A stretch of 64,000 bases of DNA, taken from the IMG/VR virus record IMGVR_UViG_3300047470_000343, positions 29,786 through 93,785 of that record. One strand, given 5' to 3'. Below are positions 32,848 through 57,637 of this stretch, piece after piece; position 1 is the stretch's first letter, and every line of letters begins with the position of its first letter. The stretch is from a virus. The notes under the pieces were generated by a model. The model was not told where the DNA came from. It did not search any database and saw only the letters and a list, made by a program, of their open reading frames with translations. The translations under genes were made by a program, and so were the position numbers.

Positions 32848-33096
32848 TCACGGTCTGACCTCGACCACGCTGGTCTTCTGCCTCAGCAGAGCCAGCACCG
32901 CATCCGCGTCGCCCGCATCGAGATCCCGCCAGGGCCCGAGGGGGCCGAGCAGCACCGGAGTGCTGGCGTACTGCTCGACCATCGCCCTCACCCGGCGGGA
33001 CCCGGTGACCGGGCCCCCGCCGGGGATCTGGACCTGATAGGCGGAACCGTCCTCCATCGTGCCCGTCACTAGCATGCTTGCCTGCCTTCCTGTCAC
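32848..33096 (-). CDS. Small hypothetical protein coupled to the giant gene
   Basis: GTGA overlap with the giant gene stop (alternative ATG 33075). Confidence 0.7.
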   Translation of the reverse strand: MTGRQASMLVTGTMEDGSAYQVQIPGGGPVTGSRRVRAMVEQYASTPVLLGPLGPWRDLDAGDADAVLALLRQKTSVVEVRP

Positions 33097-45000: not shown

Positions 45001-48000
45001 TCGATGGCGGCGCGAACCACGCCCTCCATGACCGGGTTGACGTCCTGCGCTTCGTCCCAGAACAGGGTGTCGGCGTCGATCTTGAACCCGCCGACCGCCC
45101 ACATCTTCACGATGTAGTCGAAATCCATCGGCAGGTCTTCGTCCGCGTCGCCCTTGGTCGGGTCGGACAGGTTCGCCCACATGCGGTCGGCGAGCGGCTT
45201 CACCGCGTTGAACAGGTCGCGGGCCTCCTGCGCCGTCTTGGCGCCGGTGATGTGCTGCGGGCCCATCTCCGCGTCCGCGGACTTCGCCCACGTCTTGATC
45301 ATCAGCTCGGCGACGGTCGCAGCACCGCCCGGAGCCAGATCCCGGTTCCCGGCCTTGACCGTGTCGTACCAGCGCATGCGGTCCGCGATCTGCTGCGCGG
45401 ACAGCTTCTTGAACCCGCCCTTCTTGTGGTTGGGCAGACGGTTGTTCAGCCGCTTGTCCGCGACCTTCGCCGCATACCCGTTCGCCGTCGAGGCGGTCAG
45501 GTTCTTCGCGTACTCGCCGCGGGCCTGCGCCTCGCGCGCCTCGTTCGCCACCGACCGGTTGAACGCCAGATAGACGATCTTCTTGCCCGGCATGCGGTGC
45601 GACAGCATCTTGAGCGTCGACGACTTGCCCGTACCGGCGAGCGCCATCACGGCCATGTTCAGGCCGCGGCGGGCCGCGCCGTCGATGATGATGCCCTGCT
45701 CCTCGGTGGGCGGGTACGACTCGTTCGCCGCCGCCGCGGCGTCGATACGCGCCCAGTCCTCGTCGGAGTAGCCGCCCGCCTTCGCCGCGGGCAGGTCTTC
45801 CACCCGGTGCACCAGGCCCGTGGCTTCGGCGTCGTTCAGCCCGTACCCGGCCAGCCGGTCACGGATGACGTCGCCGCGCTTGCGCGGGATGACCTTCCCG
45901 TCCTCGTCACGCTCGACAGTCGGCTTCCAGCGGCGCCGCTCCTCCTCCTCCAGCTCGAACCGGCGCTGCTCCAGACGGAGCCGGTAGGCGAGATCGACGG
46001 AGTCGGTCGCGTCCTTCAGCGGCTCGATCTGCTCGTCGAGGGTGTCGATCTCCTCGCCGATCTGGCCGCCCTCCATGTCGGCCGGCGGGGTGGCCGGGAC
46101 CGGGCGGGCATCCGACGGCGCGGTCCGCTGCCGCTGGGGAGCGCTACCGCCCGTGCCCGTGCCCGCGGCGGGTGCCGGGACCGGCTCGGGAGCTGGCTGC
46201 TCCTCGCGCTCCGGCTGGGAGAGCCGGTCACGGCGGGCCCGCAGCTCTCGCTGCACCGCACCCACCTGGACACCGAAGCGTCCCGAACGCTCCTCCGGCG
46301 TCATCTCCTGGTCGTGGAGAGCGTCCGCCAGGTGCAGCGCGGTCTCGCTGGCCGGGCCGAACACATCGCCCGCGGCCTCGCCCCACTGCTGATCCAGGAA
46401 GGTGAACAGCTCGTCGGAGAGCTGCGCGACCCGGCCGCGGGCCTGGCCGCCGAACTGCTCCTCATACCGTGCCCTCAGCGAGCCGAGAGCCGCACTGTTG
46501 TCCGCCTTGTTCGCGGTGAACAGGGAGCCGACTTCACCGTCATCCGCCGCAGACGGGGCCGGGGTCGGCCCCGAGGCGGCGGCAGGCTGGTTCGGCGCAG
46601 CCGGGGGTTCGGTCTCGTTGGTGGTCGGCTCCTCGGCCGGAGTTTCCGGCGCGGGGGCCGGGGTGCCCGTCAGGCTGCGGCGGAACTGCTCCTGTGCCTC
46701 CCGCTCGATGCGGTCGCGCTGCGCGTCCTCGCGGCGGCGCTTCTCGACCGTCACCGCGTGGCGGGCAAGGTAGTCGTCGGTGACCCGCAGGAAGTTGTCC
46801 AGCGGCTCCGCCATGCCCTGCCGGTCAGACTCGGTCAGCCTGTTGCGCAGGCGCTGCGCGTCCTCGTGAGCGGCACCCAGGGCGCTGGCCGTGTCGTCGG
46901 TGTCGCCCGACTCCTGTGCGGCGATGGCCTGGAACACGTTGTCGCGGAGCGAGCGGGCCGGAGCCGGTATTTCCCGGCCCCACGTGGCTTCGGCCGCGGT
47001 GGTGACCTGTCCCTGTGCGCCTTCCACTCCGGCGATGCCCGCGCGCCACTCGCGCTCGTTGGCGAACGGGCGCACCGTGTCGGCCTGCTTGCGGGCCGGC
47101 CGCGGGCGCTCTTCCTTGGGCGGGGTGTTCCGGGGGGTCGGGGGCTTCGGGCCGGTGCCCGGGATGCCGCTGGTGGGCGCCGCGGCGGCCGGGGTCTCCT
47201 CCGGCTTCGGGGTGTCCTCCGCTGCGGGCTTCGTGTCCGCCGGGTCGGTGATGAGCGTCGACCCGAAGTTCTGGAAGAACTCCTCGTTCGGGTCCGGCGA
47301 GTCTTCGGGGTCACCCCAGTCCGAGGAGTCGTCCTTGCCGAGCTGCTGGGTACGGCCCTCGATCAGGTCCCGGTGGTTCGGGTCGGTGGACTGTCCGTCG
47401 TTCCTGTAGACCTCGTCGTACGCCACCACGTCCCGCATGTCGACGTCGGGCAGATGTACCAGGAGCTCACCGGGGGCGTAGTCCGGATCGAGCACGATCG
47501 AGCTGCGCAGCTCGTCTTCCCTCGCATCGTCGAAGTCGCTGCTCCGGATGACGTCGCCGCGCTTGAAGTCGGACGCCTGCCAGGGCTGTTCCGGCTTCTG
47601 GGCGGGCTGCGGACCGGTGTCGTCGCTGGCGGTCGGTTCGGTGTCCGGGGAGATCTGGGCGAGGTCGTTGCGGACCTGCTTCGGGTCCAGCATCGTCGTG
47701 CCGCCCTGGCCGCTGGGCTTCGAGGACGGCTCCGAGGCGGAACGATTCTTCGCACGGCGCTGCTGCTCACGCTGAAGTCCGGCGTGACGCATCACGTCGG
47801 CTTCGCTGGCTTCGTCGTTGGCTATGAGCTCGCCCAGGCGCTCGGTCTCGCCCGTCAGCTCGGACTCGTTCATGGTGAGCGCGTCCGACTGCGCCGGGGC
47901 TGCCTGCTGCCGCTCGACCCGCGCGAGGAACGCCTCACGCTTCGCGGCGAGCTTCTTGTCCCGTACGGCCTTGCGGGCTTCGTCCGTGGGCCACACGAAC

Positions 48001-51000
48001 TTGACCTGCCCCTTGTCGTCCTGCGTGACGGCCGGCGGGGCGGGCGTCTTCGGCGACAGGTTCACGTCCCGGGCGGCCACCTGCGAGAGGACGTCTTCCT
48101 GCTCGCCCATCAGCTCGTGGAGCTCCGCGTCCAGCGCCTTGATCTGGCCTTCGCGCCTCTTGGCGTCTTCCTCACCGCCCGCGGGCTGCGCCTTCAGGCG
48201 CATGATCTCGTTGAGGATTTCCAACTGCCGGTTGGCGGTGTCGTACTCGTCGGTGAGATCGAACTTCTTGCCGACCCGGGCGGTTGCCTGTTCGGCTGCA
48301 CGCTGCTTGTCGGAGAGGAACCCCTCCTCACGGGCGATCTTGCCTTCGATGCTGGCGAGCGCGTCCTCGATACGCATCAGCGGAAGCATCTGCGGCTTGT
48401 CGTCGATGTCGACGAGCTCGTGCTCCTCGTAGGTCTTGCTGCTGCCGGAGATCGCCGGGACGTCGATGGTGACTGCGTGCTCGGTCCGGCCCTGGTAGGT
48501 GTTCCAGACACGTTCGTACTTGGCCGTGACGTCGAGGCCGCCGATCTGCCCGATCACCTTGGGCGGGGTGTTCGCGTTGTACATGCCCTGACGGCCGCCG
48601 ACCAGGATCGCGCGGGCCGTCGTGTTCAGTGCCGAACGGGCTTCGTCGCGGCCTTCCTTGCCCTCGAAGTCGGTGGTGCCGATACGGGCGTTGAAGTCGG
48701 CGCCACGGGTCGGCTTGCGCTTGGCCTTGGCGTCTTCCAGCGCCGCGACGTACTTGGCGGCCTGCCCCGCGTAGAACTCTGCGTCGCGGATCGCACGCTT
48801 GAAGCCCTCCTGAGAGCGCTGGTGGGCGTTGAACCGGGCGCGCAGCCGCTTCACGATGGGCTTGATCTGCGCCTGCGCGATCAGGTGCGGGTCACCCGCG
48901 GTGAGTGCGCTCGCCTCGTCGGCGTCGAAGGTGATCTTGCCGATGTCCTCGACGACGCGTTCGTTCAGCGAGCCGCGCATCAACTGGCGAATGAACTTCG
49001 CCTTACGGGCGATGGCTTCCCAGAACTTCGCGTCGGTCGACCGTTCGGTGGCGTACTGGAAGATCGCCACTTCTTCGTTCGCGTTGCCCTGCCGGATGAT
49101 GCGGCCGTTGCGCTGGTCGACGTCGGCGGGCCGCCACGGAGCATCGACGTGGTGCAGCGCGACGGCGCGCAACTGCACATTGGTGCCGGTGCCCATCTTC
49201 GCGGTGGAGCCGAGCAGAACGGAGATCTTGCCGGTGCGGGCCTCGTGGAACAGGCGGGCCTTGGCCGCGTCGTCCTTGGCCTCGTGGATGAACCGGATCT
49301 TCTCCGAGGGGATCCCGCGGGCTACAAGGAGCTTCTTCAGCTCGTCGTAGGTGGAGAAGTCGGTGTAGGTCTCGTCGTCGTTGCCGTCGTCGGTGGCGGC
49401 GGCGGCCTGGTCGCCGGTGTCGGCGTCCTCGCTGGTCGCCTTCTTGCGGCGCTTCCTCGTCTTGCCCGGGTCCTTCGGCGTGCCGAGGTCGAGGAAGACG
49501 ATCTGAAGCCCGCCCGGGGTGGCGTGCGGCGCGGGGTCGTTCTTGGGGTCCGTCGGATAGACGGCGTCCTTGGTCTGCTCATAAATCCGCGTGACGTTGT
49601 CCGCGACGGTGGGCAGCTTGTTGCCGGGCCCGGCGTCGGGGTCGATCAGGCGCGGGTCGAGAGCGGACAGCCGGCCATCGGTGAGGAGCTTGAGGTAGTT
49701 GTCCTCCTTCGGGTCCACGTTCCCGCCGGACAGGCGAGCCGCACGAGCCTTGATCTGCTGCTCGTACGCCTCCTGCGCCTCGGACATCGGCATCGTGATC
49801 GTGACGGCCTTGCCGCCGGCCACCTCGGGCACGGGAAGGTCGAGGTCTTCGGACGTTTTGACGTCGGCGAAGCTGCGCCACAGGCGAAGCAGTTCGGGGA
49901 CGTTCTGGAACGCGGCGAGACGGACCTTCTCCGAGAACGTGCCGTCGGCGCCCCGCTCGACGGCGGAGACCATCTGGGCGAACGTGGAAGCGAAGTCGTC
50001 GAAGTCCATGAGCCCGAGCTGTTCGAGCAGGTCAGGGCGCAGGTAGCGCATCATCGTGTGGACTTCAGCGATGGAGTTCGCCACCGGAGTGGCCGTCGCG
50101 AACGTCACGACACGGCCGGTGTTGGAGCGCTGACGCAGCCACTCCAGCTTCATTTCGAGGTCGCTGGCCCGGTTGGCGCCTTCGATTGCAGCGATAGACG
50201 ACGGCGTAGCCAGGTTCTTGAACATGTGGGCTTCGTCGACTACGAGGTAGTCGATGCCCATGTCCTCGAAGTTGAGCCCGGCGGCGTCCTTGAGCCCGCT
50301 CAGCTTCCGGTCGAGCTTTTCCTCAAGGTTCTTGAGCTGGTTCTGCATCCGCTTGACGAGGCGGGTGTCGTTCTCCGCGCCGTCGAGGGCCTGCTGCTTG
50401 AAGATCTTTTCCCGCAGGCGCTCCAGCCGCCGCGTGATGTAGGCCTCTTGCACCTCGGGGCGCATCTGGATCGACTCGAACGCGGTCTGCGTCAGGATGA
50501 TCGCGTCGTAGTCACCGGCCGCGGCCCGCGCGATGAACTCGCGTCGGCCCTTGCCTGCCAGGTCGTCGCTGGAGGCGGTCAGGATGCGGTTGTTGGCGAC
50601 GGACTCGGGGAACAGCTCGGCGAACTCGTGCCGGAACTGCTCCAGCATGTGACCGGGGACCACGATCGCGGCCTTGTTGACCAGGCCCAGGCGCCGCAGC
50701 TCCATGACGCCCATGGCCATCTCGGCGGTCTTGCCTGCGCCGACCTCGTGGGCGAGGAGGACGGACGGCTCATTGACCATCCGGGCGACGGCGGCGTGCT
50801 GGTGCGGGTGCGGCTTGAACCACTCGACCAGGCCCGGGATGGTGCGGCGCTGCCCGTCGTAGGAGCGCGGCGCCATCGCGTTGAAGTTGTCGTTGTAGAG
50901 CCGCTTGTACTTCTCGCCGCGGTCCGGGTCGCGCCAGAGCCAGTCAGTGAACTCCTCGCGCAGGAGTTCGGCCTTCGCCTCGGCGTCCTCGGTGCCCTTG

Positions 51001-54000
51001 GAGTCGTACTCGCTCTTCCCGTTGACCGTCTGAGTGACGCGGATCTTCTTGTTGGTGAGGATCGCCTCGACGATGTTCACCGCGTCGTAGCCGGGCGCGC
51101 TCCACGTGTCCTTGGTGCGGTAGGCCATGGCCTTGCGGGCCGACTTGGGAAGGTCGACAGCCCACAGGGCGCCTCCCTGCCACGACACCTTGATCTGGTC
51201 GGTGCCGAGGGTTTCGCGGAGGAACTGCTCGACCGGTTCACGGCCGATCCAGGAAGCACCGATCGGCGCGGCGATCTCGCCGGTGGACAGGTCTGCCGGG
51301 ACGACCCGCTCAAGCTGCTCGACGTGCAGATCGAACTGCGGGTCGTCGACCGCGGCCTGCCGCGCCTCGGCGAGCTTCTCGCGCACGTTGCCGGACAGGT
51401 AGTCGGCAGCCATGACGAGCTTGCCGTCCGGCGCACGGAACGCCAGCGGGTACTCCACACCCGTGTCCGGGTCGACGGACCGCACGGCCAGGAGCCGGGC
51501 GACAGCGTCCTCGGGGTCGGTGTTCATGACCCGGGCCATGCCGTCGGCAGTCAGCCGGCCGTCCTGGTCCATCACGATCGCGAGGGCGTCCTGCGGGTCG
51601 TCCGCGTGCTGGGCGATCTCACGGAACTTGCCCTGCCGCTTGGTGAAGACGGCGGCCCGGGTCGTCTGCTTGGTGTTGTCGTCGTACTCGTCCAGCGGCG
51701 AGATGTTCGCCATCGTGGGGTCCTTGGCGAACAGACCTCCGCGCGGCGCCCTCTTCCGGTAAGCCTTCTTCTCCTGCTCACCGGTCTCGGCGTTGGTGAC
51801 GGTGCGGTGCGTCCACGTGAACCGGTTGATCGCGCCGTACTTGGCGGCGTACGCCTCGTACTGCTCGTTCAGCCCCGCCCGCAGCCGCTCGATCAGCGAC
51901 TCGTCGGCGTCCTTGCGGGACTCCTCCGCGAGCAGCGACTGGAACGTGTCACGGACCGCGAGGAGCTTGCGCGCTTCGTCGACCTGGTTCTTCGGCACCG
52001 TGAACGGGTGAACCATGCGGTCGCGGACCTGAGTGAACGTTCCGTCAGGCTCGGCCTGCACGTGCCCGTCCACGCGGGCCGAGCCCGGCGGCAGAAGCAC
52101 GACCTTGCGGCGGTTCTCCGGCGCGGCCTGGTAACCCAGCCCCATGTCCTTCGCCGCGGCGACCGACCGCTTCAAAGCCCGGTCCAGGTTGGCGAGCAGG
52201 TTGCCGTCGCCGTCCGCGCGCAGCTCGTGGTCGTTGTGCTGGCCGCTCCCGACCGCGAGCTTCCCGAGCACCTGCTCGGGGTGGTCGTGGAAGTAGGAGT
52301 TGTAGAAGACCGGCGGCTCGTCGCCTTCCGACGGAACGTCGCTCTTGGGCGGCGTCTGCCCGGGAAGGGCGTACGTAGGCAGGGAGTGCACCCACATCGG
52401 CGGATCGTTCTGGCTGCGCTCGGACGGACGCTTGACCTCGCCGTTGCGGGCGCGGCCCGACGTGAACGTCTTGTCCTTGTCGCGGCGCTTGAAGATCAGA
52501 AGGTCGGTCATGACCGGAGTGCCTGCGGTCCGCTGGTGCGCACCGGACGGCAGACGGATCGCGGCGACCAGTTCGCCCTTCTCCGCCATCTCCATACGGG
52601 CGGACTCGGCCCGCTTGCCGTGGCCGTCCATCGTGAGCGCGGACGTGATCACGGAGACCAGGCCGCCGGCCCGGGTCAGATCCAGGGACTTGAGGATGAA
52701 GTGGTTGTGGATCGAGTGGCCGCCCTTGTTGTGCACCAGGTCGGGCACCTTGTAGCGGCCGAAGGGGACGTTGCCGATCGCCATGTCGAAGGTGCCGTTG
52801 GGGGCACGGGTGTCGCCGAACGACTCGTGACGGACCTCGGAGTGCGGGTAGAGGGCCTTCGCGATACGCGCCGTGATCGGGTCGACCTCGACGCCGGTCA
52901 TCTCGGCGCCGTCGGGGGCGTAGCCGATGAAGTTGCCGACGCCGGATCCCGGCTCCAGCACCATTCCGCCGTCGAACCCGAGTCCCTCGACCGCGGCCCA
53001 GACCTGCTGAACGATCTGCGGGTCGGTGTAGTGGGCGTTCAGAACGTTGTCGTTGGCGTCCGCCCACTCCTTGTCGGTCAGGAGCTGACGCAGCTTCTCC
53101 GCGAGCGGCGCGAACTGGCCCTCGGGGCGGGGCTTGAAGAGGTGCGGGACCGCGCCCCACCCGGAGTACCGGGCGAGCTCGGTCTGCTCGTCCGGTGTTG
53201 CCGGACGGTTCTCGGCCTCCAGCCGGTGAAGGATCTCGATGGCGGCGATGTTCGCCTTCGCCCGGTTGAGCGGGCTGGACGGCGCCAGGGTCTCGCCACT
53301 GGCCGGAGGCTCGAACGACGGAGCGGTGGCCTGCTGCTCCGGGGTGCCGAACGCTACAGAGCCGGAATCTCCACCGGCGGCATGTCCTTCGTCTCCGTGC
53401 CCGGCTCCTTCTCCATCCCGTACACCATCTCGTGCAGCACCCGTTCCCGAGCTCGCATCTTCACGGACTTCCGCTCGTTGGCCCGATCCACGACGTCCGT
53501 CCCCGCCACCAGAGGCGGCAGCCACTCGTCCGTCAGATCCTCGATCGCCGCCACGATCTCCGCCGACCGCTCCCGGGCGAACTCCTCCAGCGCCGCGTTC
53601 GTCGGCATCGCTGCCACCTCGCTGGGCCGGTACGTCTTCCAGAACGTTCGAACGAGATCCTCGTACGCCACCGTCGTTGCTCCTCTGTGTGTGATCGGCC
53701 AGGGCCTTCAGGGCGATGTCCACGTTCTCCCGCGCGGTACGCAGAAGGCTCTGGACGTGAATGTTGCGGCGGGCATCCATGCCGCGGGTGGCGCGCTGGA
53801 CCGCATCCAGCGCGGCCCGGAACTTGCTGATCGCGTCGGACGGGGTCAGCTCGCCCCGCTCATACTGATCCAGCACGTCGGCGGCCTGCACAGCGAGGTC
53901 GCGCGCAGCCTGCTCTCCGTGCAGTTCACGGATGTCGTTGATGGCCGGGAACATCTGGTTCGAGGCCTCGCGCAGCGCCGCGAGGACGTGCTGCTTCATG

Positions 54001-57000
54001 GCGGTCTCAGACGCCATGTGGGCCAAGTCCCGCTCGTCCTGCTTCGCCTGCTTGTCGGCGGCCGCACGGTTCTTGTCGGCCTGCTCCTTGTCCTGCTCGC
54101 GCACCAGGTCGGCGACAGCCGCCTCCTGGGTCAGGAACGACTTCTTCGAGGTGTAGCGGGTGCCGTAGCCGAGACGGCTCCACTTCCAGCGGCCCGTCGA
54201 GCCCCTGAGCGCCGAGGTATGCCCCTGTTCGCCGTCGATGGTGACGGGGATGCTGCCGTTGTCGTTCGGGGTGCCGAGGGAGACGCGGGCGAGCTGCTGC
54301 GCGTACGCCTGCTCGTCCTGCTTCTGCGCCGCGGCGAGGATGGCCTCAGCCTCGGCCTGGCTGCGCGCAGACTTCTCCGGATCGTCGTCATAGTCGCCGT
54401 CCGCCCAGTCCTTGACGGCCCGCTCGTACTCGGCGTCGAGGCTCTTGCGCGGCTCCTGCGACCAGTCCCGCTTTTCGGGCGTCGCCTGCTCGGGTGCCGG
54501 CTGCGGGGCGTTCTGCTCGGGGGCGTCCGGGTTCGGGGCGTCGGTCTGCGTCGGCTTCCCGGCGTACGGGGTGCCGTCGGGCCGCATGATGTCGCCCACC
54601 GGGTGCACGCGCGTGCCGCGCTCGGCGCGCACGAGGACCGACCCGGAGTCCTTGTTGACGCCCATGACGTCGCCGACACCGTCGGGAGAGTTGACCTCGT
54701 CACCGACCGCGGGGAAGTCCCCGTCAGCCGAGGCTTCCGGCGCGTTCTGCGGGGCCGGGGCGGGCTGCTTCTGTTCGGCCTGCCGCTTGGCGTAGTCCTT
54801 GGCGATGTACGAATCGGCGTCGCCGTGGTCGATGTCCCACTGGCCGCGGACGTCGTCCATCCGCTGCCCGAAGTCCTTGCGCCAACTGTTGACGCGGTTC
54901 GGGTTGCGGCGGAAGAGCTCGGGATCCCACCAGTCCACTTCCTGACCCGGGCGGGACGGCTCCTCGACCTCACGGCCGACCGCCAGGGCGAACATGCTGG
55001 CGTCACGCCAGGACTTGAAGCCCTTCCCGGCGCCGCCCGTGTAGCCGATATCGCGGCCGTCGTAGGCGCGGACGACGTCGAACTCCTCGGGGCCGCGCTG
55101 GACGATGGCGAACCCGAAGTGGTCCGCCGCGGTGACCTTCCACTTGGGGTTCGCCGCGATGGCGCGGAGCATGTTCTTACGGTGCTCGTCGAACGCCGGG
55201 TCGCCGCCGTTCTTCCAGTACTCGCGCAGCTCACTGGTATTGCCCGGCTTGTGGAAGCCGCCGGTGCTGTCGTCGTCGTTCTTCGGCCCGATGTGGCCGA
55301 CGGCGATGTTCTGCCGGGGGATGCCGGAGGTGTCGGCGATGGACTGCGCGGCCTGCACCAGCGGGTTCGGTCGCTCGGTCGGAGCCGCCGGAGCGTCAGG
55401 CTTGGGCGTGGCGGCCTGCTCGTCCAGCCACTTCTGAGCAGCGCGAGCCCGGAGGCTCTTTCGCCTATCCATCAACGGTCCCTCGTGGCCGTTGCCGATT
55501 GCGGCGATCAGCTCGATCCACTTTCGGTCGCGCTCCGGACCAGCCGGGTACTTCCACGATCCGTCGGGGTTGACCATCTCGGGGTCGACCGTGTGACGCA
55601 GGAAGGTGATCGCCGCGCCATCGGAGCGGAACAGAGCGAAGGGCAGCGGGCGACCGGTCTCGACGTCGCGCAGCTCCACGGAGTCGGGGCCGTTGCGGTA
55701 GTCGGAGCCGTGGTTGTGTACGAACGCGATGTCGCCCGCCACGGCACCGGAATGCTTGTTGGCGGCGGCCTCAAGGTTGTCTCGGGCCGAGGACGGAGGG
55801 GCTTGAGAGACGAGCTGCTTCCAGTGCTCGCGCACCTTGTCGTACTCGCTCTGGCCCCCGGCCGGCCGGTGGTACGGCTCGGCCGTACCGGTGTTGGACG
55901 CGGCAGCCACGACCGGCGCGGTCGGAGCCGCAGGGGCCGGAGTCGGGGGGGCCGGGGTGCGCTTCGCGGTCGCGCCCTCGCGCTTCTTCGCCGCCTTGTC
56001 CGCGAAGACCTTCTTCGCATCGACGCTGGCCTGGCGCACCATCTCCTGGCCCTTGGGCGACTCCAGGCGCTGGTGATAGCCGGGGGAGTCCCAGTCGAAC
56101 GGCTTGCCGTCGAGCTGGGCCGCCTCCAGGCGGTTCGCGAAGTCGACCGCTTCGCCCTTGCGGTCCGACATGGCCAGGCGGACACCGCTGCCGGAGACGA
56201 TGACGGCGTATCCGGACTTCCGCTGACCGTCCTTCTCCACGGTCATCTTGGCGATGACGAACCGGCCGCCTCGGGAGAGCTGCGGCTTGTCCAGCTTGGC
56301 GAACAGCGCGGCGGTTTCCCGCTGGTGCCGCTCCTGCGTGGCCTTATTGGTGGTGTACGGCTCCAGGTTGCCCTTCTGCCAGTACTTCTGAAGCTCGTCG
56401 AGGTTCTTGAACAGCTTGCCGCGAGGACCGGAGCTCTCACTGGGGGGAGCGGGGCGCCAGGCCCGAGGGACAAGCGGCTGGATCTTCGGGCGCTTCTTGC
56501 TCGGCGCGGGGATCGGCTCTTCGCCGTGGCTGGTGAAGCGTTCGTGAGCAAGATTCAGGGCGTCGCGCAGGTTGGCGGCGTACCGGGCGACTTCGTCTTG
56601 GCCGTCATCGTGGGCCAGTTCGGAGAGCTTGTCGGCGTCGTCCGCGAGCCATGACAGCCGCTCGACGTCGTCCGGGTCGAGCTGGTTCTTCTTGTCGTCC
56701 CGGACGTCGAATCCGGTGCCCACGTCGGCCAGGTTGTCGTAGAGCTCGTCTGCTTCGGTGTTGTGCCAGTTGGCCGGCCAGACGCCTTCCAGGTCCCCGA
56801 AATACTCCTCGCTGAGGTCGCGTACGGCGCGGCGGGCGTGGCTGGTGTCCCAGAACTGATTGAAGTGGTCGCCCACCTTGGGGCCCCGTGCGCGCAGCGC
56901 ATCCCCGTTGCCCATGAGGTGCCGGGCGTGCTCCGTCTCTCCCTGGTAGTTGTCCATGGGGAGGAGGTCAGAGAAGCGCGGGGTTGCGAGGTTGCCGCGC

Positions 57001-57602
57001 CGCGGGGCGGGCAGAGGGTCGCCGTCGTTGTCGTTGATGTGCGACATGGCGCGGCCCTGCGGGACGAGCGGCTGATCGTCGTCGTTCTCCGGGTCGTCGG
57101 GGCCGGCGCCGAGATCCTGGCCCTCGATGTCCTCGCCGATCGGCTGGTCCTGGTCGTCGCGCTCGTGGACGGTGTCCGGGGTCAGGCCGTTGTCGCCGCG
57201 GTCGTTCGCGCCGTGGTTCTTCTCGGGGTCGTCGTCCGTCTCCGGGTCGTGCGGAGCGTGGCCACCGCCGCGGGTCTCGTCGCCGAAGCGCCGTTCGTCC
57301 TCGTCGCGGACCTTGGACTTGCTCTTGGTCGGCGCCGTGCCGTCCGGGCGGCTGACCATGGTCAGCCGCGAAGCGTTGATGCGTGACTGCTGGTGGGTGG
57401 CCAGGTTCTCCACGAGCACGTCACGGCCGCCGAGCGCGCGCAGCACGCGGGCCATGCCGCCGCCCCACATGCGGGCGATGCCGCCCGTCTCAACGAAACG
57501 GCCCTTGGAATCGCGGGGGTGCAGATCCGCGTTCCAGGTGCGGCGCAGCCTCTTGGTTTCGAGGCTGGCGAGGAGGCGGTCTACGGCGCTGGTGATCGGC
57601 AT
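33093..57602 (-). CDS. Giant polyvalent protein (~8,169 aa): DarB-like N6-adenine MTase + SNF2 helicase, UvrD-like SF1 helicase, many SH3/KOW-like repeats
   Basis: HPRDSKGRF N-terminal motif; LEPGSGVG and GNVPF; HEVGAGKT, VDEAH, GTGTNVQ, PWRPAD..QR.GR; ALAGTGKS, DEAQD, VGDSNQAIYGFRGA, LTQSFRFG, TAHKSKGLE, YVAVTRA; leaderless ATG 57602. Confidence 0.93.
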   Translation of the reverse strand: MPITSAVDRLLASLETKRLRRTWNADLHPRDSKGRFVETGGIARMWGGGMARVLRALGGRDVLVENLATHQQSRINASRLTMVSRPDGTAPTKSKSKVRDEDERRFGDETRGGGHAPHDPETDDDPEKNHGANDRGDNGLTPDTVHERDDQDQPIGEDIEGQDLGAGPDDPENDDDQPLVPQGRAMSHINDNDGDPLPAPRRGNLATPRFSDLLPMDNYQGETEHARHLMGNGDALRARGPKVGDHFNQFWDTSHARRAVRDLSEEYFGDLEGVWPANWHNTEADELYDNLADVGTGFDVRDDKKNQLDPDDVERLSWLADDADKLSELAHDDGQDEVARYAANLRDALNLAHERFTSHGEEPIPAPSKKRPKIQPLVPRAWRPAPPSESSGPRGKLFKNLDELQKYWQKGNLEPYTTNKATQERHQRETAALFAKLDKPQLSRGGRFVIAKMTVEKDGQRKSGYAVIVSGSGVRLAMSDRKGEAVDFANRLEAAQLDGKPFDWDSPGYHQRLESPKGQEMVRQASVDAKKVFADKAAKKREGATAKRTPAPPTPAPAAPTAPVVAAASNTGTAEPYHRPAGGQSEYDKVREHWKQLVSQAPPSSARDNLEAAANKHSGAVAGDIAFVHNHGSDYRNGPDSVELRDVETGRPLPFALFRSDGAAITFLRHTVDPEMVNPDGSWKYPAGPERDRKWIELIAAIGNGHEGPLMDRRKSLRARAAQKWLDEQAATPKPDAPAAPTERPNPLVQAAQSIADTSGIPRQNIAVGHIGPKNDDDSTGGFHKPGNTSELREYWKNGGDPAFDEHRKNMLRAIAANPKWKVTAADHFGFAIVQRGPEEFDVVRAYDGRDIGYTGGAGKGFKSWRDASMFALAVGREVEEPSRPGQEVDWWDPELFRRNPNRVNSWRKDFGQRMDDVRGQWDIDHGDADSYIAKDYAKRQAEQKQPAPAPQNAPEASADGDFPAVGDEVNSPDGVGDVMGVNKDSGSVLVRAERGTRVHPVGDIMRPDGTPYAGKPTQTDAPNPDAPEQNAPQPAPEQATPEKRDWSQEPRKSLDAEYERAVKDWADGDYDDDPEKSARSQAEAEAILAAAQKQDEQAYAQQLARVSLGTPNDNGSIPVTIDGEQGHTSALRGSTGRWKWSRLGYGTRYTSKKSFLTQEAAVADLVREQDKEQADKNRAAADKQAKQDERDLAHMASETAMKQHVLAALREASNQMFPAINDIRELHGEQAARDLAVQAADVLDQYERGELTPSDAISKFRAALDAVQRATRGMDARRNIHVQSLLRTARENVDIALKALADHTQRSNDGGVRGSRSNVLEDVPAQRGGSDADERGAGGVRPGAVGGDRGGDRGSDGRVAAASGGGDGRRGSGQRAEVREDASSGTGAARDGVRDGEGAGHGDEGHAAGGDSGSVAFGTPEQQATAPSFEPPASGETLAPSSPLNRAKANIAAIEILHRLEAENRPATPDEQTELARYSGWGAVPHLFKPRPEGQFAPLAEKLRQLLTDKEWADANDNVLNAHYTDPQIVQQVWAAVEGLGFDGGMVLEPGSGVGNFIGYAPDGAEMTGVEVDPITARIAKALYPHSEVRHESFGDTRAPNGTFDMAIGNVPFGRYKVPDLVHNKGGHSIHNHFILKSLDLTRAGGLVSVITSALTMDGHGKRAESARMEMAEKGELVAAIRLPSGAHQRTAGTPVMTDLLIFKRRDKDKTFTSGRARNGEVKRPSERSQNDPPMWVHSLPTYALPGQTPPKSDVPSEGDEPPVFYNSYFHDHPEQVLGKLAVGSGQHNDHELRADGDGNLLANLDRALKRSVAAAKDMGLGYQAAPENRRKVVLLPPGSARVDGHVQAEPDGTFTQVRDRMVHPFTVPKNQVDEARKLLAVRDTFQSLLAEESRKDADESLIERLRAGLNEQYEAYAAKYGAINRFTWTHRTVTNAETGEQEKKAYRKRAPRGGLFAKDPTMANISPLDEYDDNTKQTTRAAVFTKRQGKFREIAQHADDPQDALAIVMDQDGRLTADGMARVMNTDPEDAVARLLAVRSVDPDTGVEYPLAFRAPDGKLVMAADYLSGNVREKLAEARQAAVDDPQFDLHVEQLERVVPADLSTGEIAAPIGASWIGREPVEQFLRETLGTDQIKVSWQGGALWAVDLPKSARKAMAYRTKDTWSAPGYDAVNIVEAILTNKKIRVTQTVNGKSEYDSKGTEDAEAKAELLREEFTDWLWRDPDRGEKYKRLYNDNFNAMAPRSYDGQRRTIPGLVEWFKPHPHQHAAVARMVNEPSVLLAHEVGAGKTAEMAMGVMELRRLGLVNKAAIVVPGHMLEQFRHEFAELFPESVANNRILTASSDDLAGKGRREFIARAAAGDYDAIILTQTAFESIQMRPEVQEAYITRRLERLREKIFKQQALDGAENDTRLVKRMQNQLKNLEEKLDRKLSGLKDAAGLNFEDMGIDYLVVDEAHMFKNLATPSSIAAIEGANRASDLEMKLEWLRQRSNTGRVVTFATATPVANSIAEVHTMMRYLRPDLLEQLGLMDFDDFASTFAQMVSAVERGADGTFSEKVRLAAFQNVPELLRLWRSFADVKTSEDLDLPVPEVAGGKAVTITMPMSEAQEAYEQQIKARAARLSGGNVDPKEDNYLKLLTDGRLSALDPRLIDPDAGPGNKLPTVADNVTRIYEQTKDAVYPTDPKNDPAPHATPGGLQIVFLDLGTPKDPGKTRKRRKKATSEDADTGDQAAAATDDGNDDETYTDFSTYDELKKLLVARGIPSEKIRFIHEAKDDAAKARLFHEARTGKISVLLGSTAKMGTGTNVQLRAVALHHVDAPWRPADVDQRNGRIIRQGNANEEVAIFQYATERSTDAKFWEAIARKAKFIRQLMRGSLNERVVEDIGKITFDADEASALTAGDPHLIAQAQIKPIVKRLRARFNAHQRSQEGFKRAIRDAEFYAGQAAKYVAALEDAKAKRKPTRGADFNARIGTTDFEGKEGRDEARSALNTTARAILVGGRQGMYNANTPPKVIGQIGGLDVTAKYERVWNTYQGRTEHAVTIDVPAISGSSKTYEEHELVDIDDKPQMLPLMRIEDALASIEGKIAREEGFLSDKQRAAEQATARVGKKFDLTDEYDTANRQLEILNEIMRLKAQPAGGEEDAKRREGQIKALDAELHELMGEQEDVLSQVAARDVNLSPKTPAPPAVTQDDKGQVKFVWPTDEARKAVRDKKLAAKREAFLARVERQQAAPAQSDALTMNESELTGETERLGELIANDEASEADVMRHAGLQREQQRRAKNRSASEPSSKPSGQGGTTMLDPKQVRNDLAQISPDTEPTASDDTGPQPAQKPEQPWQASDFKRGDVIRSSDFDDAREDELRSSIVLDPDYAPGELLVHLPDVDMRDVVAYDEVYRNDGQSTDPNHRDLIEGRTQQLGKDDSSDWGDPEDSPDPNEEFFQNFGSTLITDPADTKPAAEDTPKPEETPAAAAPTSGIPGTGPKPPTPRNTPPKEERPRPARKQADTVRPFANEREWRAGIAGVEGAQGQVTTAAEATWGREIPAPARSLRDNVFQAIAAQESGDTDDTASALGAAHEDAQRLRNRLTESDRQGMAEPLDNFLRVTDDYLARHAVTVEKRRREDAQRDRIEREAQEQFRRSLTGTPAPAPETPAEEPTTNETEPPAAPNQPAAASGPTPAPSAADDGEVGSLFTANKADNSAALGSLRARYEEQFGGQARGRVAQLSDELFTFLDQQWGEAAGDVFGPASETALHLADALHDQEMTPEERSGRFGVQVGAVQRELRARRDRLSQPEREEQPAPEPVPAPAAGTGTGGSAPQRQRTAPSDARPVPATPPADMEGGQIGEEIDTLDEQIEPLKDATDSVDLAYRLRLEQRRFELEEEERRRWKPTVERDEDGKVIPRKRGDVIRDRLAGYGLNDAEATGLVHRVEDLPAAKAGGYSDEDWARIDAAAAANESYPPTEEQGIIIDGAARRGLNMAVMALAGTGKSSTLKMLSHRMPGKKIVYLAFNRSVANEAREAQARGEYAKNLTASTANGYAAKVADKRLNNRLPNHKKGGFKKLSAQQIADRMRWYDTVKAGNRDLAPGGAATVAELMIKTWAKSADAEMGPQHITGAKTAQEARDLFNAVKPLADRMWANLSDPTKGDADEDLPMDFDYIVKMWAVGGFKIDADTLFWDEAQDVNPVMEGVVRAAIDQGVQVVAVGDSNQAIYGFRGASDALSKLPVDARATLTQSFRFGPAVANVGNRFLRLLGTRMRLKGFDRKDSRLGNIKPGDETMVIARTNAGVALAAVEGLAAGRTIAVSGGVKDLQEFVTAARTLAKGERTSHAELARFNGKSYEDILEEVNSDPELQQLKSLFALLEKHSDEIDKLMESGAQAAETENVGGRVWVTLDWNDPKVDQLKRWLGDGKTNGVGKLLYDRESRRYYYEPGKRTESFTKNGRTINYQVDNKLSLEDAKAKIDAHLAKLYPQEDTGGGRLVDEKKPHDLLVTTAHKSKGLESERVRIADDFRGPEYDDNGHIKWDTVPEDEDLRVAYVAVTRATDVLDSGSLGWVFEAVNDDDPTQPPTGEYRRDWVLDDFKPGDRINFQEEDGTGRVGEVARLDGPGLIARYDVDGQQREQYISTAQVQRRNGQDRPQLPVASEDELNQAVAEGRYPSAGGDAPVKLDAGQVRNDLAALKTPEAAPKAPADDIIAGNEEPPGPDATPYEVERYRRRFDIAYKVGYYVDYRNHDGQTVTARVVGTHGNPILRDSSGNEFQANPDWYADHFIAVRADDGSALPRPAWADTLPEGFRAVSPDEIQPGHVIRLGSSGDPLWGSRFVMSAKTDADGHTSLYTAVLNTQGGGGTGYDPRQLVTLDETEESRQAAEEALRRSDVKESAKLRGITLPKELPASTIAKPDREAPESSTAPEWNNGDWVVTPNGEGRVILAEDGKVVVLDGGGAPRTYEPRQLSMPGETRTAEHDAPTSQETARAEKRQQDLESAQSPEGLGLFYGARLANLDLEEGRGQVLDEDGNAVGWIRRRGTVWHGQDARGGQTAGGTAQSDSDPLYGPREAAQAVDSNRRDSGMRVALKDTAWRHLRPEEGSDIVQYSELSDVQREEFFKLVKDWEKSSDPELSEAAKHWGQGGLNYQQMNRLAQEAAATADSVDASTPEGRRRQAVLRRLADKIRAQASRAWHSWQTMPPPGEPDVPRDVDAPDWVPYGHRETSEAGTPVKLDAAQVRQELTDLNGGDSSPAANGDQGEAGSETEAGGETISPDQARLNDYVRVEVSDTVDRIRVHEGYLLANPRKGKGHRPRHGDYDAWILYLGTGPNQSPGRGNQVDIPADQKIQRLPAPEAPALGPVDMESVKPGQYIRVTVPDADGSEVTREGYVVSSSARRDGPRRDDPVMSWTVHIADTPHAAYEQDDVIEVPAGHEVERMAPPGPVPELEIPDVPGLDLSQYTRDDQESVDEYRKWAGVWANPAPDGPRNALLDRVKNMPGPAYMPLSPKGAPQWIGSAGDAFPLDQFDENARHLLAQYDGDQRDFLAGHAASMREATQRLAGEFRAASREIMLPRIATRSGLKDAAEKLNARWAEDSEQIRQVVPDQIAAAVVDADRHGLTEQQVKDFLVGVAGGDDPEQKANGLTGAFPEVRRSLISARDDVTSYYAGFHAWRGQDDDQSFAGYHHYNARRSALGAEYVPVADPRTGSGQLIVGEAELPDGMRWTRLQNLKPGDLYRPARGWFRNENRFDGLGAVHRVINLHADGKEGRTRTTSLSTGSHTEHPGDWVVHLTAPEPALRKKANAAVRDQWVQREIEEDDRKWEAAQAISRRPEGEAADVASLKEGERLRVRGSSEFLGGIYVAEGDLLQPPERAQMWRNGTQVDGWRLAVSTRGHAGDDIYVADGESDEWAERLSPKSNTAAPDDAPNPEATDTTAGVAPDAAPKSDAPGTGDPNTDAPETDKPQTDESQTDEPGTDEPNTDESENDNNDEERDRRRRRRNGLGNGVPSGGGGGGLPGGPGMGLPNFPDGSTPSTGSGRDRGDGSGRTPTGTRQADNANPAAELPDEYAALRQRYDGDMVPASEIEVGDWVHIVGADQIYNEPEHLVGRVLHTRQFNGGVRIEVESRDPLKGGDAVQRESASLYDGELAERLPEGNPGREDTSDLKRRMETWEERASASRVPAPEGWQAVDGSRIQPRIGDRFRIVSRRDGKNTQHMNVVVDRSADWQGDGYWGVKNQPRRFHPRDIVAIPEGADVQYRDYVPEPGESTPQRPERTPSVPDISDEPRAEIVNPDEPQRGDRVRVETQNTAGNKVTREGFLLAPAREVTATRDGERLKAWRLHLSDNPDAKPNVRNGVTILRDDKVARLPDTDAPAAGGADVPREGVATPVGGQDGASSSNSPSAGGSDAPGAGDGQGAAPAGDAPAPTSQYGINAAHSTGQAGSVDGRRIPTHKELEQYETGENRIISEEGERALFGSPERMQELAAQGFTPSPKLVSDHGREEVWRNGRLIGSLRAPHTVGFYMTPPEERWEGEMPLGTYFHPGTFSTRDAAIAHLVLRDMEQGAPDLSIVHPDIAWDFERLNPGNAFPPEKEGLRGLETLNDNPADMERYGAIRAMVDTLGRGETISGNVADDLDHLHDELRWLDATHYTYQPADLKHTHILGPGWLADEIREYLDVLRPEDPRAMHHETSKARAAKQFLTTLVDQGGMGRAESVPVTDLREGDIVHLNGRITDRYPGATSDRTGYVVGEPRPASITINKKRQKALRITVADSQARGHDLSGHTFVIPIGDNAQRLMSADDVNVPVDQYKYGRQVGETPEVTPQRATDASANTPAPAKDRPAPEANTPAPAPAEDRPAPEAETSAPAPAEERPAPAQAPASPQSPAADSPQQTADDTAEPERPAVPEPVGGRPAEWVKVSDINVGDVVRIDGITKGGTARTLAGYVTDGPTQVPTVRARRVQDMVRVLIAETPDGSTKRESVWVHPDATAARATRESGDESTTVQTGADSDVLTGRIADRVATDGGGNGLFPGSVVTDDDGREGVVVGANAAGVRVQFGDDRTDDAHEPSTLNVIDGGAARPSGWTSDGHRVEVGNWVSDRDGNMLGTVEELDGDTATVATTEGMKPMPVTDLRVIGDTADNGQDGEQGAPRREEPITSREPAPPVEPVTGPTVDPELAPEERDAVADRGTAPGDAPDAQQGAARIARDLPVTPGQASAVAEGLRQNADSSTAEGRAAKRAADRLDQAAGQTGASDDGGMTTEARYLSTGDVIVAPVNGEPSRLLIVEGIRSADGKTVDLLLANADGRFIRQSVSARAPFQPLPYDGSFEGGGVTDQADRRIAKATELKPGDHLVFGTGHNGSDWFTRKVQSVDVGDKEVTVEIEGVAGGPPSTKTFQILAGVLPESATVMDRERPAAAWFAANLGRLTGETPSTPAPDTGSAPAGRPEPGTVGSVGVGDTIALPDETNPDEMASYRVTDVQDAPGGVRVLTVEDGNGQRSERTMAAGDPLYQLPEPQVPADDDDEARDPNAGLDTAAFTADYGDWVARAVVDAAVEGTQTPGSIHQLREQIAANITAGALRSAMRRLRQDAVAVVDGSGITGDERERLLAELRRTAMSSRADAVQAAVQTLNDLEPLDGESPEDTAARAADLLRLIPESMRNRPETDEPDVDTNAGTTDADGDLGETTGDTEPETGEGSRVDDEVQGHVDGALGEALRDADTGPLTPERRAEIVARLAQRMADSRDGAAQRIAAQLPEGERPGVLARIKAALAQIARRIMELVAAFLKAIAAAVAYPFKAINRFRKALVRRVRSWPETRRLRRIAAAARSLPRHGDGMSLADQVAHWARLLPAPGHFGQVSRRRRWYRPATRSSLAAGQLPGVQDGTGWTMDRAADRGPGRYALRHLAAVRAAGTDVDADVVARLMAAAPELGDDPHGTVRHARRYQDRAEARVRNLRAVAAGQGAPDLGPEIAAAQVEAQHARQEADRLHQAYTAALPGAVRDTLAQVREMGPGGRNRLTLSHNSDQAAARALADAAGYVPREWLADRTARFVTAVDGDAGSYDADSGTATVADLGDGGRGTAVNALVAHLQRSYPDLVAAQEVFGFTRTHTGRPGARRSALDALLERLFGGRAEDVTDDQIVARGLATMFSGDWYRDDDLRAFLLGLLATR
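53354..53671 (-). CDS. TnpV-like protein nested out of frame within the giant gene
   Basis: RBS GAGGAG 8 nt before GTG; GC3-rich codons; FWKTYRP...MRARERVLHEMVY. Confidence 0.7.
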   Translation of the reverse strand: MAYEDLVRTFWKTYRPSEVAAMPTNAALEEFARERSAEIVAAIEDLTDEWLPPLVAGTDVVDRANERKSVKMRARERVLHEMVYGMEKEPGTETKDMPPVEIPAL

Positions 57603-57609
57603 GCGGCGG

Positions 57610-57637
57610 ACCATGCACACCGGGGGTGGTTAGTGTC
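57610..57637 (-). promoter_or_regulatory. Conserved promoter-like motif for the giant gene
   Basis: GACACTAAC-13nt-CATGGT, 7 nt before ATG 57602. Confidence 0.75.

What the first reader, a model, noticed from the sequence alone, without database searches (positions are those of the whole stretch)
53354..53671. Dual-coding region: a TnpV-like gene nested on the same strand inside the giant ORF
Seen: a 105-aa ORF in another frame with RBS GAGGAG, G/C-ending codons and a globular-looking sequence (MAYEDLVRTFWKTYRP...MRARERVLHEMVYG). Over the same stretch the giant frame turns into Gly/Arg/Asp-rich text (GGDRGGDRGSDGR...), which is what an off-frame reading of a high-GC gene looks like. It ends just before the MTase domain. 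Inference: it resembles TnpV-family proteins (C-terminal R..A.E.VL.E..Y). A small gene plus MTase-helicase cassette may have been fused into the giant ORF by reading through the small gene out of frame, leaving both intact. It could be a partner or regulator of the DarB-like module. Standard annotation would drop it.
Basis: partly seen in the sequence, partly recalled or inferred. Interest (0 to 1): 0.8.

Follow-up and report, generated by a model that had tools for sequence, protein, structure and literature searches.

The report
Small gene nested inside giant gene
A complete 105-codon gene for a small acidic TnpV-like protein is written one base out of frame inside the floppy linker of this phage-plasmid's 8,175-codon anti-restriction (methylase-helicase) gene, and the same two-frame layout is kept in every relative examined, so one DNA stretch very probably encodes two proteins that annotation pipelines mishandle.

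Summary
At 53354-53671 (-) the codon-position GC signature moves from the giant frame to the +1 frame. That frame holds a 105-aa ORF with a GTG start, a GAGGAG Shine-Dalgarno 8 nt upstream and a stop 12 codons before the start.

- **Conservation:** all 44 Streptomyces-type loci compared keep the small ORF, its start and its SD. All 44 also keep the giant frame open across it.
- **Other lineages:** three distant Actinomycetota genomes (one 46% GC) and six cultured phages of Proteobacteria and Cyanobacteria have the same layout. Chance openness there is below 0.001 to 0.41 per locus.
- **Selection:** the small frame is under purifying selection (pN/pS 0.39). The giant frame in the overlap is a Gly/Arg/Ala/Asp linker (pN/pS 1.27). 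Synonymous divergence in the overlap is depressed.
- **Family:** the protein is a confident helical fold and a remote TnpV relative. It does not itself pass Pfam's TnpV threshold.
- **Rejected:** no slippery sites, so no frameshift fusion; an independent metagenome contig rules out assembly error.

Forms without the N-terminal module also start the giant ORF upstream of the small gene. Function is unknown; a partner of the DarB-like module is my inference. This scan has already noted the same layout on other DNA. I found no paper describing it.

The parts
53354..53671 (-). Nested small gene: 105 codons plus TAG stop, GTG start, frame +1 of the giant ORF. It encodes an acidic, all-helical, TnpV-like protein (P0001).
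   Evidence: for the ORF and for the codon-position GC; conserved with start and SD in 44/44 loci; pN/pS 0.39. AF2 pLDDT 95. TnpV link.
53680..53685 (-). Shine-Dalgarno-like GAGGAG, 8 nt upstream of the GTG. It lies inside giant-frame codons.
   Evidence: An SD-like motif 4-12 nt upstream of the start is present in 44/44 loci.
53708..53710 (-). TGA stop in the small frame, 12 codons upstream of the GTG. It closes the small frame towards the N-terminal module.
   Evidence: open frame 117 codons.
53354..53707 (-). Overlap stretch as read in the giant frame: a low-complexity Gly/Arg/Ala/Asp-rich linker (about residues 1305-1422 of the giant protein).
   Evidence: The giant frame is open here in 44/44 related loci. 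Giant-frame pN/pS is 1.27.
33093..57620 (-). Giant polyvalent-protein ORF, 8,175 codons.
53780..57620 (-). N-terminal module of the giant ORF (about 1,280 codons), coding in the giant frame up to the overlap. Absent in 14 'short-form' relatives.
   Evidence: (GC3 0.85-0.95 in the giant frame).
52557..53351 (-). Conserved helical N-terminal region (motif NIAAIEIL...RPATPDEQ..LARYSGWG), followed by the N6-adenine MTase core (Eco57I-type Pfam match at residues 1599-1688).
   Evidence: The region may be the LPD36 domain that PMC5512222 places N-terminal to these MTases; that identity was not tested.
49683..50804 (-). SNF2-type helicase domain of the giant protein.
   Evidence: PF00176, PF04851; Helicase_C follows.
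44934..45659 (-). UvrD-like SF1 helicase domain of the giant protein.
   Evidence: PF00580, PF13245.
58512..60971 (-). Phage portal gene directly upstream of the giant gene (context).
   Evidence: PF04860, E 1.6e-40.
29412..31409 (-). Prohead protease with a 2H phosphoesterase domain, downstream of the giant gene (context).
   Evidence: PF04586, PF13563.

Best explanation
This is a genuine same-strand overlapping gene pair.

**Shown:**
- The giant polyvalent (DarB-like MTase / SNF2 / UvrD) gene of a Streptomyces-type phage-plasmid is read in frame 0 straight through 53707-53354.
- There it encodes only a disordered Gly/Arg/Ala/Asp linker between the N-terminal module and the MTase part.
- The +1 frame of the same DNA carries a separate 105-codon gene with its own start signals: SD GAGGAG and GTG at 53671.
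- That gene encodes a small acidic helical protein remotely related to TnpV.
- Protein-level selection acts on the small frame. The giant frame is selected mainly to stay open.

**Inferred:**
- Both products are made from the one late, head-module transcript.
- The small protein is made by internal initiation.
- The nesting locks the small gene to the 5' side of the MTase module and ties its output to that of the giant gene.
- My preferred role for the small protein is an accessory factor of the DarB-like module, such as a chaperone, packaging adaptor or activity regulator. This is comparable in logic, not in sequence, to the small accessory proteins P1 DarB needs. I put about 0.35-0.4 on that part.
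For: **Coding signature.** GC by codon position switches to the small frame exactly over the ORF.

**Conservation in Streptomyces-type loci.**
- In 44/44 loci (window, 4 plasmids, 7 IMG/VR contigs, 32 genomes) the small ORF is intact.
- All 44 have an ATG/GTG start preceded by an SD-like motif 4-12 nt upstream.
- In all 44 the giant frame, always the small frame -1, is open across it.
- These loci fall into about 10 clades below 45% aa identity. The chance of openness is about 0.46 per locus.
- 30 loci carry a 700-1,300 aa N-module fused in the giant frame with no stop before the overlap.
- In the 14 loci without it, the giant frame has a strong-SD start about 50 nt upstream of the small start. 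Several of these have no other usable start.

**Lower-GC DNA, where chance openness is small.**
- L057 (46% GC): 3e-4 from the stop rate in neighbouring genes, and 0/5000 by codon resampling.
- Phages LASTA 0.009, VvAW1 0/3000, Atu_ph08 0.016, PEp14 0.12, Mwe-JY07 0.14, Itty13 0.41. All six have the same +1 nesting.

**Selection, 15 independent pairs.**
- Small frame pN/pS 0.39; giant frame in the overlap 1.27; downstream giant 0.26.
- Synonymous divergence of the small frame is 0.170 against 0.269 in the flank, lower in 14/15 pairs (sign test p 0.001). This is the signature expected of a second constraint.

**The protein.**
- AF2 on 38 homologues gives pLDDT 95 and pTM 0.84, four helices plus a conserved tail.
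- The family has 767 representatives at E<=1e-3.
- Median pI is 4.9.

**Start codon.** The GTG is displaced by one codon between the window and its closest relative, yet a start is kept.

**Assembly.** An independent metagenome contig is identical, with no indels.

**Context for a packaged protein.** The giant gene lies between the portal and prohead protease genes.
Against: - There is no direct evidence of translation of either frame. No RNA run holds the stretch, and no Ribo-seq or proteomics data were available.
- In the high-GC short forms alone, openness of the giant frame could be passive (P 0.54-0.65 each). PGAP places the giant start downstream of the small gene in one of them.
- The small frame's pN/pS is high (0.5-1.0) in one clade (L001/L007-L019), partly because dS is depressed.
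- P0001 itself gets no Pfam hit.
- No solved structure resembles the model, so nothing supports any particular biochemical role.
- Per the literature, stand-alone tnpV genes exist in Tn4451-type transposons that are not described as carrying a methylase-helicase (PMC3158075). This argues against an obligatory partnership with the DarB-like module.
Confidence: 0.82

Rival explanations
1. There are two or three separate, non-overlapping genes. The giant 'ORF' is an accident of high GC: the MTase-helicase gene really starts downstream of the small gene, and the frame-0 reading across it is never translated.
For: Off-frame ORFs are common in this DNA. About 48% of 105-codon windows are stop-free in this frame relation, and resampling gives 0.46. 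PGAP annotates exactly this arrangement in plasmid NZ_CP108543.
Against: In the window and 29 other loci, an N-module that clearly codes in frame 0 runs into the overlap without any stop, so its ribosomes must read through. The frame relation is identical in all 53 loci examined. In several short forms the only usable giant-frame starts lie upstream of the small gene. In lower-GC DNA the open frame cannot be chance: L057 <2e-4, VvAW1 <3e-4, LASTA 0.009.
Confidence: 0.05
2. Programmed ribosomal frameshifting joins the frames. One version is a -1 shift at the end of the small ORF giving a TnpV-MTase-helicase fusion. The other is a +1 shift from the N-module into the small frame giving an N-module-TnpV product.
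For: The giant frame is the -1 frame of the small ORF, which is the classic geometry. In the deposited sequence of Sinorhizobium phage PBC5 the upstream module is in frame with the TnpV-like part.
Against: No X_XXY_YYZ heptamer in phase occurs anywhere in the small ORF in any of the 44 loci. A stop closes the small frame 12 codons upstream of its start, and every locus has its own SD and start. The giant frame is open over the entire small ORF, not just a short overlap. No in-frame fused homologues were found among longer proteins, though that is weak evidence. No conserved RNA structure was found at the start.
Confidence: 0.06
3. The small frame is a decaying relic: a once-independent gene overrun by the giant ORF, or a compensated double frameshift or assembly error. 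It no longer makes a protein.
For: pN/pS in one clade approaches 1. There are no expression data.
Against: The ORF, start codon and SD are intact in 44/44 Streptomyces-type loci and in distant phyla. Pooled pN/pS is 0.39. Motifs are invariant (W11, T13, Y14, R15). The AF2 fold from the alignment is confident. An identical sequence occurs in an independent sample without indels.
Confidence: 0.04

Closest known systems
TnpV (Pfam PF14198), transposon-encoded protein of Tn4451/Tn4453-type mobilisable transposons
   Same: Small (about 100-120 aa) helical protein of mobile elements. The C-terminal ...R..A.E.VL.E.VY helix and the N-terminal aromatic/Pro motif align. Relatives of the window protein hit the TnpV model nearly full-length (positions 24-111) at E about 1e-3. 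One nested homologue passes the curated cut-off. hhalign gives 96% probability between it and the window's family.
   Different: The window protein itself gets no Pfam hit at E<=1. Its actinobacterial family (W-x-T-Y-R-P ... EKEPGTE tail) is a distinct, unnamed branch. Classic tnpV is described as a stand-alone gene, postulated without proof to act in excision (PMC3158075). Here the gene is nested inside a methylase-helicase gene.
Polyvalent proteins with the DarB-type DNA methylase-SNF2 helicase dyad (Iyer et al. 2017, PMC5512222); phage P1 DarB
   Same: The host gene has an EcoKI/TaqI-like adenine MTase fused to an SNF2 helicase, plus the UvrD-like helicase reported for gigantic Streptomyces plasmid proteins. 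It sits in the head module next to the portal gene.
   Different: The paper's text contains none of the words TnpV, overlapping or frameshift, so it does not appear to describe a second frame. tblastn with two nested TnpV-like proteins listed no phage P1 record.
Embedded out-of-frame gene pairs of phages, e.g. Rz1 wholly inside Rz in the +1 frame (embedded class cited in PMC9144972); comS inside srfAB of Bacillus subtilis (own knowledge)
   Same: A complete small gene with its own start lies in the +1 frame inside a larger same-strand gene, and both are kept.
   Different: Here the host frame over the overlap is only a disordered linker of a multi-thousand-residue protein. The pair is conserved across at least three phyla. 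The embedded protein's function is unknown.
Small accessory proteins of the P1 Dar system (Ulx, DdrB) needed with DarB against EcoB/EcoK (PMC12810830, citing Piya et al. 2017)
   Same: A small protein genetically tied to a DarB-type virion protein. This is the functional analogy behind my preferred role.
   Different: No sequence or fold relationship was shown, and the P1 proteins were not compared directly. This is analogy only.

Membership tests
TnpV (Pfam PF14198) | The protein itself scores above the curated gathering cut-off (27 bits) of the TnpV model | tested here: not met
   P0001 has no family at E<=1. No match to PF14198 was found in six frames of the whole virus record at E<=10.
TnpV (Pfam PF14198) | Remote homology to TnpV, shown by profile methods or transitive links | tested here: met
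   TnpV is the commonest sub-threshold family, hit by 15/38 members with best E 0.0045. Relatives P0020, P0045 and P0060 hit positions 24-111 of 111 at E 4e-4 to 1e-3. The nested L057 protein scores 27.4 bits, at or above the cut-off. It aligns to the window's family profile at 96.2% probability, E 2e-9.
Same-strand nested (overprinted) gene pair | Both reading frames stay open across the overlap in diverged relatives, more often than chance allows | tested here: met
   44/44 Streptomyces-type loci, with chance 0.46 each. 3/3 distant Actinomycetota, including a 46% GC locus with chance <2e-4. 6/6 cultured phages with chance from <3e-4 to 0.41.
Same-strand nested (overprinted) gene pair | The embedded frame is under purifying selection and has its own start codon and ribosome-binding site | tested here: met
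   Pooled pN/pS is 0.39 over 15 independent pairs. Start plus SD-like motif is present in 44/44 loci. The codon-position GC signature follows the small frame.
Same-strand nested (overprinted) gene pair | Both products are actually translated | not testable with these tools
   No RNA run holds the stretch. No Ribo-seq or proteomics data are available here.
Polyvalent protein, DarB-type MTase-helicase dyad | N6-adenine MTase fused N-terminal to an SNF2 (SF2) helicase in one very large polypeptide of a phage or conjugative element | tested here: met
   Eco57I-type MTase at residues 1599-1688. SNF2-rel_dom, ResIII and Helicase_C at about residues 2270-2845, and UvrD at about residue 3988 onwards. 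The architecture is described in PMC5512222.
Polyvalent protein, DarB-type MTase-helicase dyad | Delivered with the DNA (virion-packaged) and protects it from restriction | not testable with these tools
   Only context is available: the gene lies between the portal and prohead protease genes.
Programmed -1 ribosomal frameshift cassette | In-phase slippery heptamer X_XXY_YYZ in the upstream frame near the junction | tested here: not met
   None in any of the 44 loci, over the whole small ORF.

The most novel reading that the evidence does not exclude
TnpV-like proteins are an ancient, near-universal companion of DarB-type methylase-helicase modules. Their gene has been kept overprinted on the linker just 5' of the MTase since before these elements spread among Actinomycetota, Proteobacteria, Cyanobacteria and (by this scan's earlier notes) Bacillota. 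On this reading the nesting is functional. Two initiation sites on one mRNA would fix the ratio of a small chaperone, adaptor or regulator to a giant injected anti-restriction enzyme, and the small protein would be required for that enzyme's packaging, delivery or control.
Probability: 0.3. Interest if true: 0.85.

Novelty: new variant of a known kind. Interest (0 to 1): 0.7.

Why it matters
Long, deeply conserved same-strand overlapping genes are rare in bacteria and their elements, and few are well documented. This one sits inside the largest genes of many phages, phage-plasmids and plasmids. Examples are the DarB-like 'polyvalent' anti-restriction proteins of cultured Klebsiella, Erwinia, Vibrio, Pseudomonas, Agrobacterium and Microcystis phages, and of Streptomyces plasmids.

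Annotation handles it in three faulty ways:
- it omits the small gene;
- it truncates the giant gene to make room for it;
- it calls genes on the wrong strand.

As a result a whole protein family of 767 or more 50%-identity clusters is largely missing from proteomes and from virion mass-spectrometry databases.

If the small protein is a required partner of DarB-type enzymes, it is a missing component in models of how injected anti-restriction proteins are packaged and work. It is also directly testable in tractable phages.

The case is also a clean natural example of how a disordered linker can host a second gene. Selection acts on the protein in one frame and almost only on 'no stop' in the other.

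Tried and rejected
The planned test of the small protein (A2) against the 800 residues after the overlap (A4) was not run, so there is no evidence on binding.
- **Foldseek** against PDB found nothing at E<=0.001. VIA-align wide gave a best Z of 5.7, which is background for a helical protein.
- **PHROGs** gave only a weak unknown-function hit, E 0.08.
- **ESM Atlas**: the nearest clusters are unnamed actinobacterial proteins. One cluster has TnpV on 19% of members, score 0.88.
- **In-frame fused forms** among longer proteins: none found, which is weak evidence.
- **Conserved RNA structure** around the small start: RNAalifold predicted no pairs.
- **Slippery heptamers**: none.
- **tblastn of P0001 against cultured phages**: no match. 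Matches came only with the less diverged L057 and LASTA proteins.
- **Phage P1**: not among the records listed by tblastn with either nested protein. The idea that P1 Ulx is the counterpart stays an untested analogy.
- **RNA runs**: no RNA holder listed.
- **PF14198 search** in the class of G068 found only G068.
- **Literature**: four searches and five papers read in part turned up no description of a gene nested in DarB-like or polyvalent genes. The library lacks most subscription journals.
Full report
**What is in the window.** The window is 70% GC and forms part of a 93.8-kb IMG/VR virus record. The minus strand carries an 8,175-codon ORF at 33093-57620.
- The ORF lies between a portal gene (58512-60971, PF04860) and a prohead protease with a 2H phosphoesterase domain (29412-31409).
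- It contains an Eco57I-type N6-adenine methylase (residues 1599-1688), an SNF2 helicase (about 2270-2845) and a UvrD-like helicase (from about 3988).
- This is the DarB-type methylase-helicase 'polyvalent protein' architecture of Iyer et al. 2017, which notes the extra UvrD helicase in gigantic Streptomyces plasmid proteins (PMC5512222).
- Related plasmids carry ParA/ParB and a portal gene next to the giant gene, so these are phage-plasmid-like elements.

**The observation.** The ORF 53354-53671 (-) has 105 codons, starts with GTG and is in frame +1 of the giant ORF.
- GAGGAG lies 8 nt upstream of the start (53680-53685).
- A TGA closes the small frame 12 codons before the start (53708-53710).
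- Between about 53690 and 53360 the GC-rich codon position jumps from giant position 3 to giant position 1, the third position of the small ORF. It jumps back at the small stop.
- In the giant frame the stretch is 30% Gly, 13% Arg, 13% Ala and 11% Asp, with 9% hydrophobic residues.
- Contigs from an independent rhizosphere metagenome cover 53000-54000 with no differences and no gaps. No run shows indels, so assembly frameshifts are excluded.
- An open off-frame of this length is not unusual in such DNA: 48% of windows, or 0.46 by synonymous resampling. The decisive evidence must therefore be comparative.

**Relatives in Streptomyces-type elements.** tblastn and pattern scans gave 4 plasmids, 7 viral contigs and 32 genome contigs. 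These are Streptomyces, Actinacidiphila and Wenjunlia, at 27-81% identity. With the window that makes 44 loci.
- In all 44 the small ORF is intact.
- In all 44 it begins with ATG or GTG preceded by an SD-like motif 4-12 nt upstream.
- In all 44 the frame one base behind it is open across the whole small ORF and continues into the methylase-helicase.
- 30 loci carry a 700-1,300-aa N-terminal module fused in that frame.
- 14 lack the module. In these the giant frame still has a start with a strong GGGGAG-type SD about 50 nt upstream of the small start, and in several there is no other usable start.
- The PGAP start downstream of the small gene in NZ_CP108543 is therefore probably an artefact of avoiding the overlap.
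- In three other plasmids PGAP annotates the giant CDS and omits the small gene.
- The loci fall into roughly ten clades below 45% aa identity. Chance alone (0.46 per lineage) is therefore unlikely, about 4e-4.

**Lower-GC relatives settle it.** A profile of the wider family found nested copies in three distant Actinomycetota genomes.
- One locus, L057, is only 46% GC. There the small ORF (ATG start, AAAGGAGG SD) lies in frame +1 of a long ORF. That ORF runs from a globular upstream domain, through a Ser/Gly/Glu/Thr linker, into the same conserved N-terminal motif of the methylase.
- The chance of that frame being open is 3e-4 from the stop rate in neighbouring genes, and 0/5000 by resampling.
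- tblastn with this protein and with the LASTA homologue hit cultured phages of Klebsiella, Erwinia, Pseudomonas, Vibrio, Agrobacterium, Ochrobactrum, Sinorhizobium and Microcystis. Nearly every hit lay under a feature annotated as DarB-like antirestriction, DNA methylase or helicase.
- I checked six of these. All six have the +1 nesting with the giant frame open. Chance values are 0.009 (LASTA), 0/3000 (VvAW1), 0.016, 0.12, 0.14 and 0.41.
- The frame relation is the same in all 53 loci.

**Selection.** Nei-Gojobori estimates were made on 205 pairs and pooled over 15 phylogenetically independent pairs.

| Region and frame | pN/pS |
|---|---|
| Small frame | 0.39 |
| Giant frame inside the overlap | 1.27 |
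| Giant frame downstream | 0.26 |

- Synonymous divergence of the small frame is 0.170, against 0.269 in the flank. It is lower in 14 of 15 pairs (sign test p 0.001).
- The protein-level constraint therefore lies in the small frame. The extra loss of synonymous change fits a second constraint from the other frame: no stops, and linker composition.
- The start codon has moved by one codon between the window and its closest relative, yet is retained.

**Rivals.**
- *Frameshift fusion.* There is no in-phase slippery heptamer in any locus. The small frame is closed just upstream of its start. The giant frame is open over the whole ORF rather than over a short junction. No fused homologues were found.
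- *Separate non-overlapping genes.* This is excluded by the N-modules that run into the overlap without a stop, and by the lower-GC cases.
- *Relic or error.* This is excluded by conservation, purifying selection, the confident fold and the independent contig.

**What the small protein is.**
- AlphaFold2 with 38 homologues gives pLDDT 95 and pTM 0.84: four helices plus a conserved extended tail EKEPGTE..MP.
- No solved structure matches.
- The family is acidic, with median pI 4.9, or 4.4 for the wider family.
- It is large: 767 representatives at E<=1e-3, mostly 90-190 aa.
- P0001 itself has no Pfam hit.
- TnpV (PF14198) is nevertheless the leading sub-threshold family for 15/38 members. It covers nearly the whole model in wider relatives.
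- The nested L057 protein passes the curated cut-off and matches the window's family at 96% hhalign probability.
- I therefore call the protein a remote TnpV-superfamily relative, not a Pfam TnpV member.
- The literature offers only an unproven Xis-like guess for TnpV (PMC3158075).

**How it most likely works.**
- *Shown:* two frames are conserved, the small gene has its own start signals, and the overlap is confined to a linker that ends exactly where the conserved domain N-terminal to the methylase begins.
- *Inferred:* one late transcript yields both proteins. The small one is made by internal initiation, and in short forms from a start only about 50 nt from the giant start. The two outputs are thus coupled and the genes cannot be separated.
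- *Functional guess:* the small gene keeps its position just 5' of the methylase whatever lies upstream. This points to a role with the methylase-helicase module as chaperone, packaging adaptor or regulator. P1 DarB likewise needs small accessory proteins (PMC12810830).

The dual-coding reading, the TnpV lead and the annotation warning are right. The 'cassette fused into the giant ORF' story is not needed, because the overlap also exists in relatives without the N-module and in other phyla.

**Novelty.**
- Earlier notes of this scan describe the same TnpV-in-polyvalent-gene layout on other DNA: Bacillota conjugative elements, plasmids and proteobacterial phages.
- I verified the phage part myself. 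I did not test the Bacillota part.
- My searches and the five papers I consulted, including the polyvalent-protein paper and a Bcep22-like phage paper that looked for DarB accessory genes, found no description of a nested gene.
- G271, flagged as unpublished, was not used for any claim.

Noticed in passing
L055:8455-8778 and L055:9068-9340 (G298:C7): This distant actinobacterial locus has two TnpV-like copies. One is nested in the giant ORF. A second, diverged paralogue lies directly upstream, in the same frame as the giant ORF and separated from it by a single stop codon (8776-8778).
   Followed up: partly
L058 (Sinorhizobium phage PBC5, NC_003324 23745-28981): In the deposited sequence the upstream module is in frame with the TnpV-like part (gp22 ends with it), and the DarB part is a separate CDS (gp21). 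This is either a frameshift error in an old genome or a natural in-frame variant.
   Followed up: partly
L063 (Pseudomonas phage Itty13, NC_070969 4524-9823): The RefSeq CDSs over this region are on the opposite strand. The other strand carries an ORF of more than 1,766 codons with the conserved methylase N-terminal motif and the nested TnpV-like gene. This is probably a wrong-strand annotation in 68% GC DNA.
   Followed up: partly
L004:5895-6339 (NZ_CP108543) and L001-L003: PGAP is inconsistent. It annotates the small gene only where it also moves the giant start downstream of it (6339), although a strong-SD GTG at 5919 opens the giant frame upstream. In three other plasmids the small gene is simply absent from the annotation.
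   Followed up: yes
window 43167-56654 (+): A 4,495-codon ORF lies antisense to the giant gene, and further same-strand off-frame ORFs of about 370 codons lie at 52045-53160 and 54131-55234 (-). I read these as shadow ORFs of high-GC coding DNA, but did not test that. They show how little a single open frame means here.
   Followed up: no
window 53669-53674 (-) versus L006:5995-6000: The small gene's GTG is displaced by one codon between the window (ACG GTG GCG TAC) and its closest relative (ACA GCG GTG TAC), so a start is kept while its position shifts. Two other metagenome samples carry a G>A variant (minus strand) at 53672, the base before the GTG.
   Followed up: partly
L057:8568-8888 (G068:C48): Besides TnpV, the nested protein of the 46% GC genome gives a weak sub-threshold hit to EcoEI_R_C (PF08463, E 0.012), the C-terminal helical domain of type I restriction R subunits. 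It was not seen in the Streptomyces family members.
   Followed up: no
L006:6315-6400 and L013:6315-6400: The window's closest relatives have an extra insertion of about 25 residues in the giant frame directly after the small gene's stop, before the conserved FEPP...NIAAIEIL region. The junction therefore tolerates indels in multiples of three.
   Followed up: no
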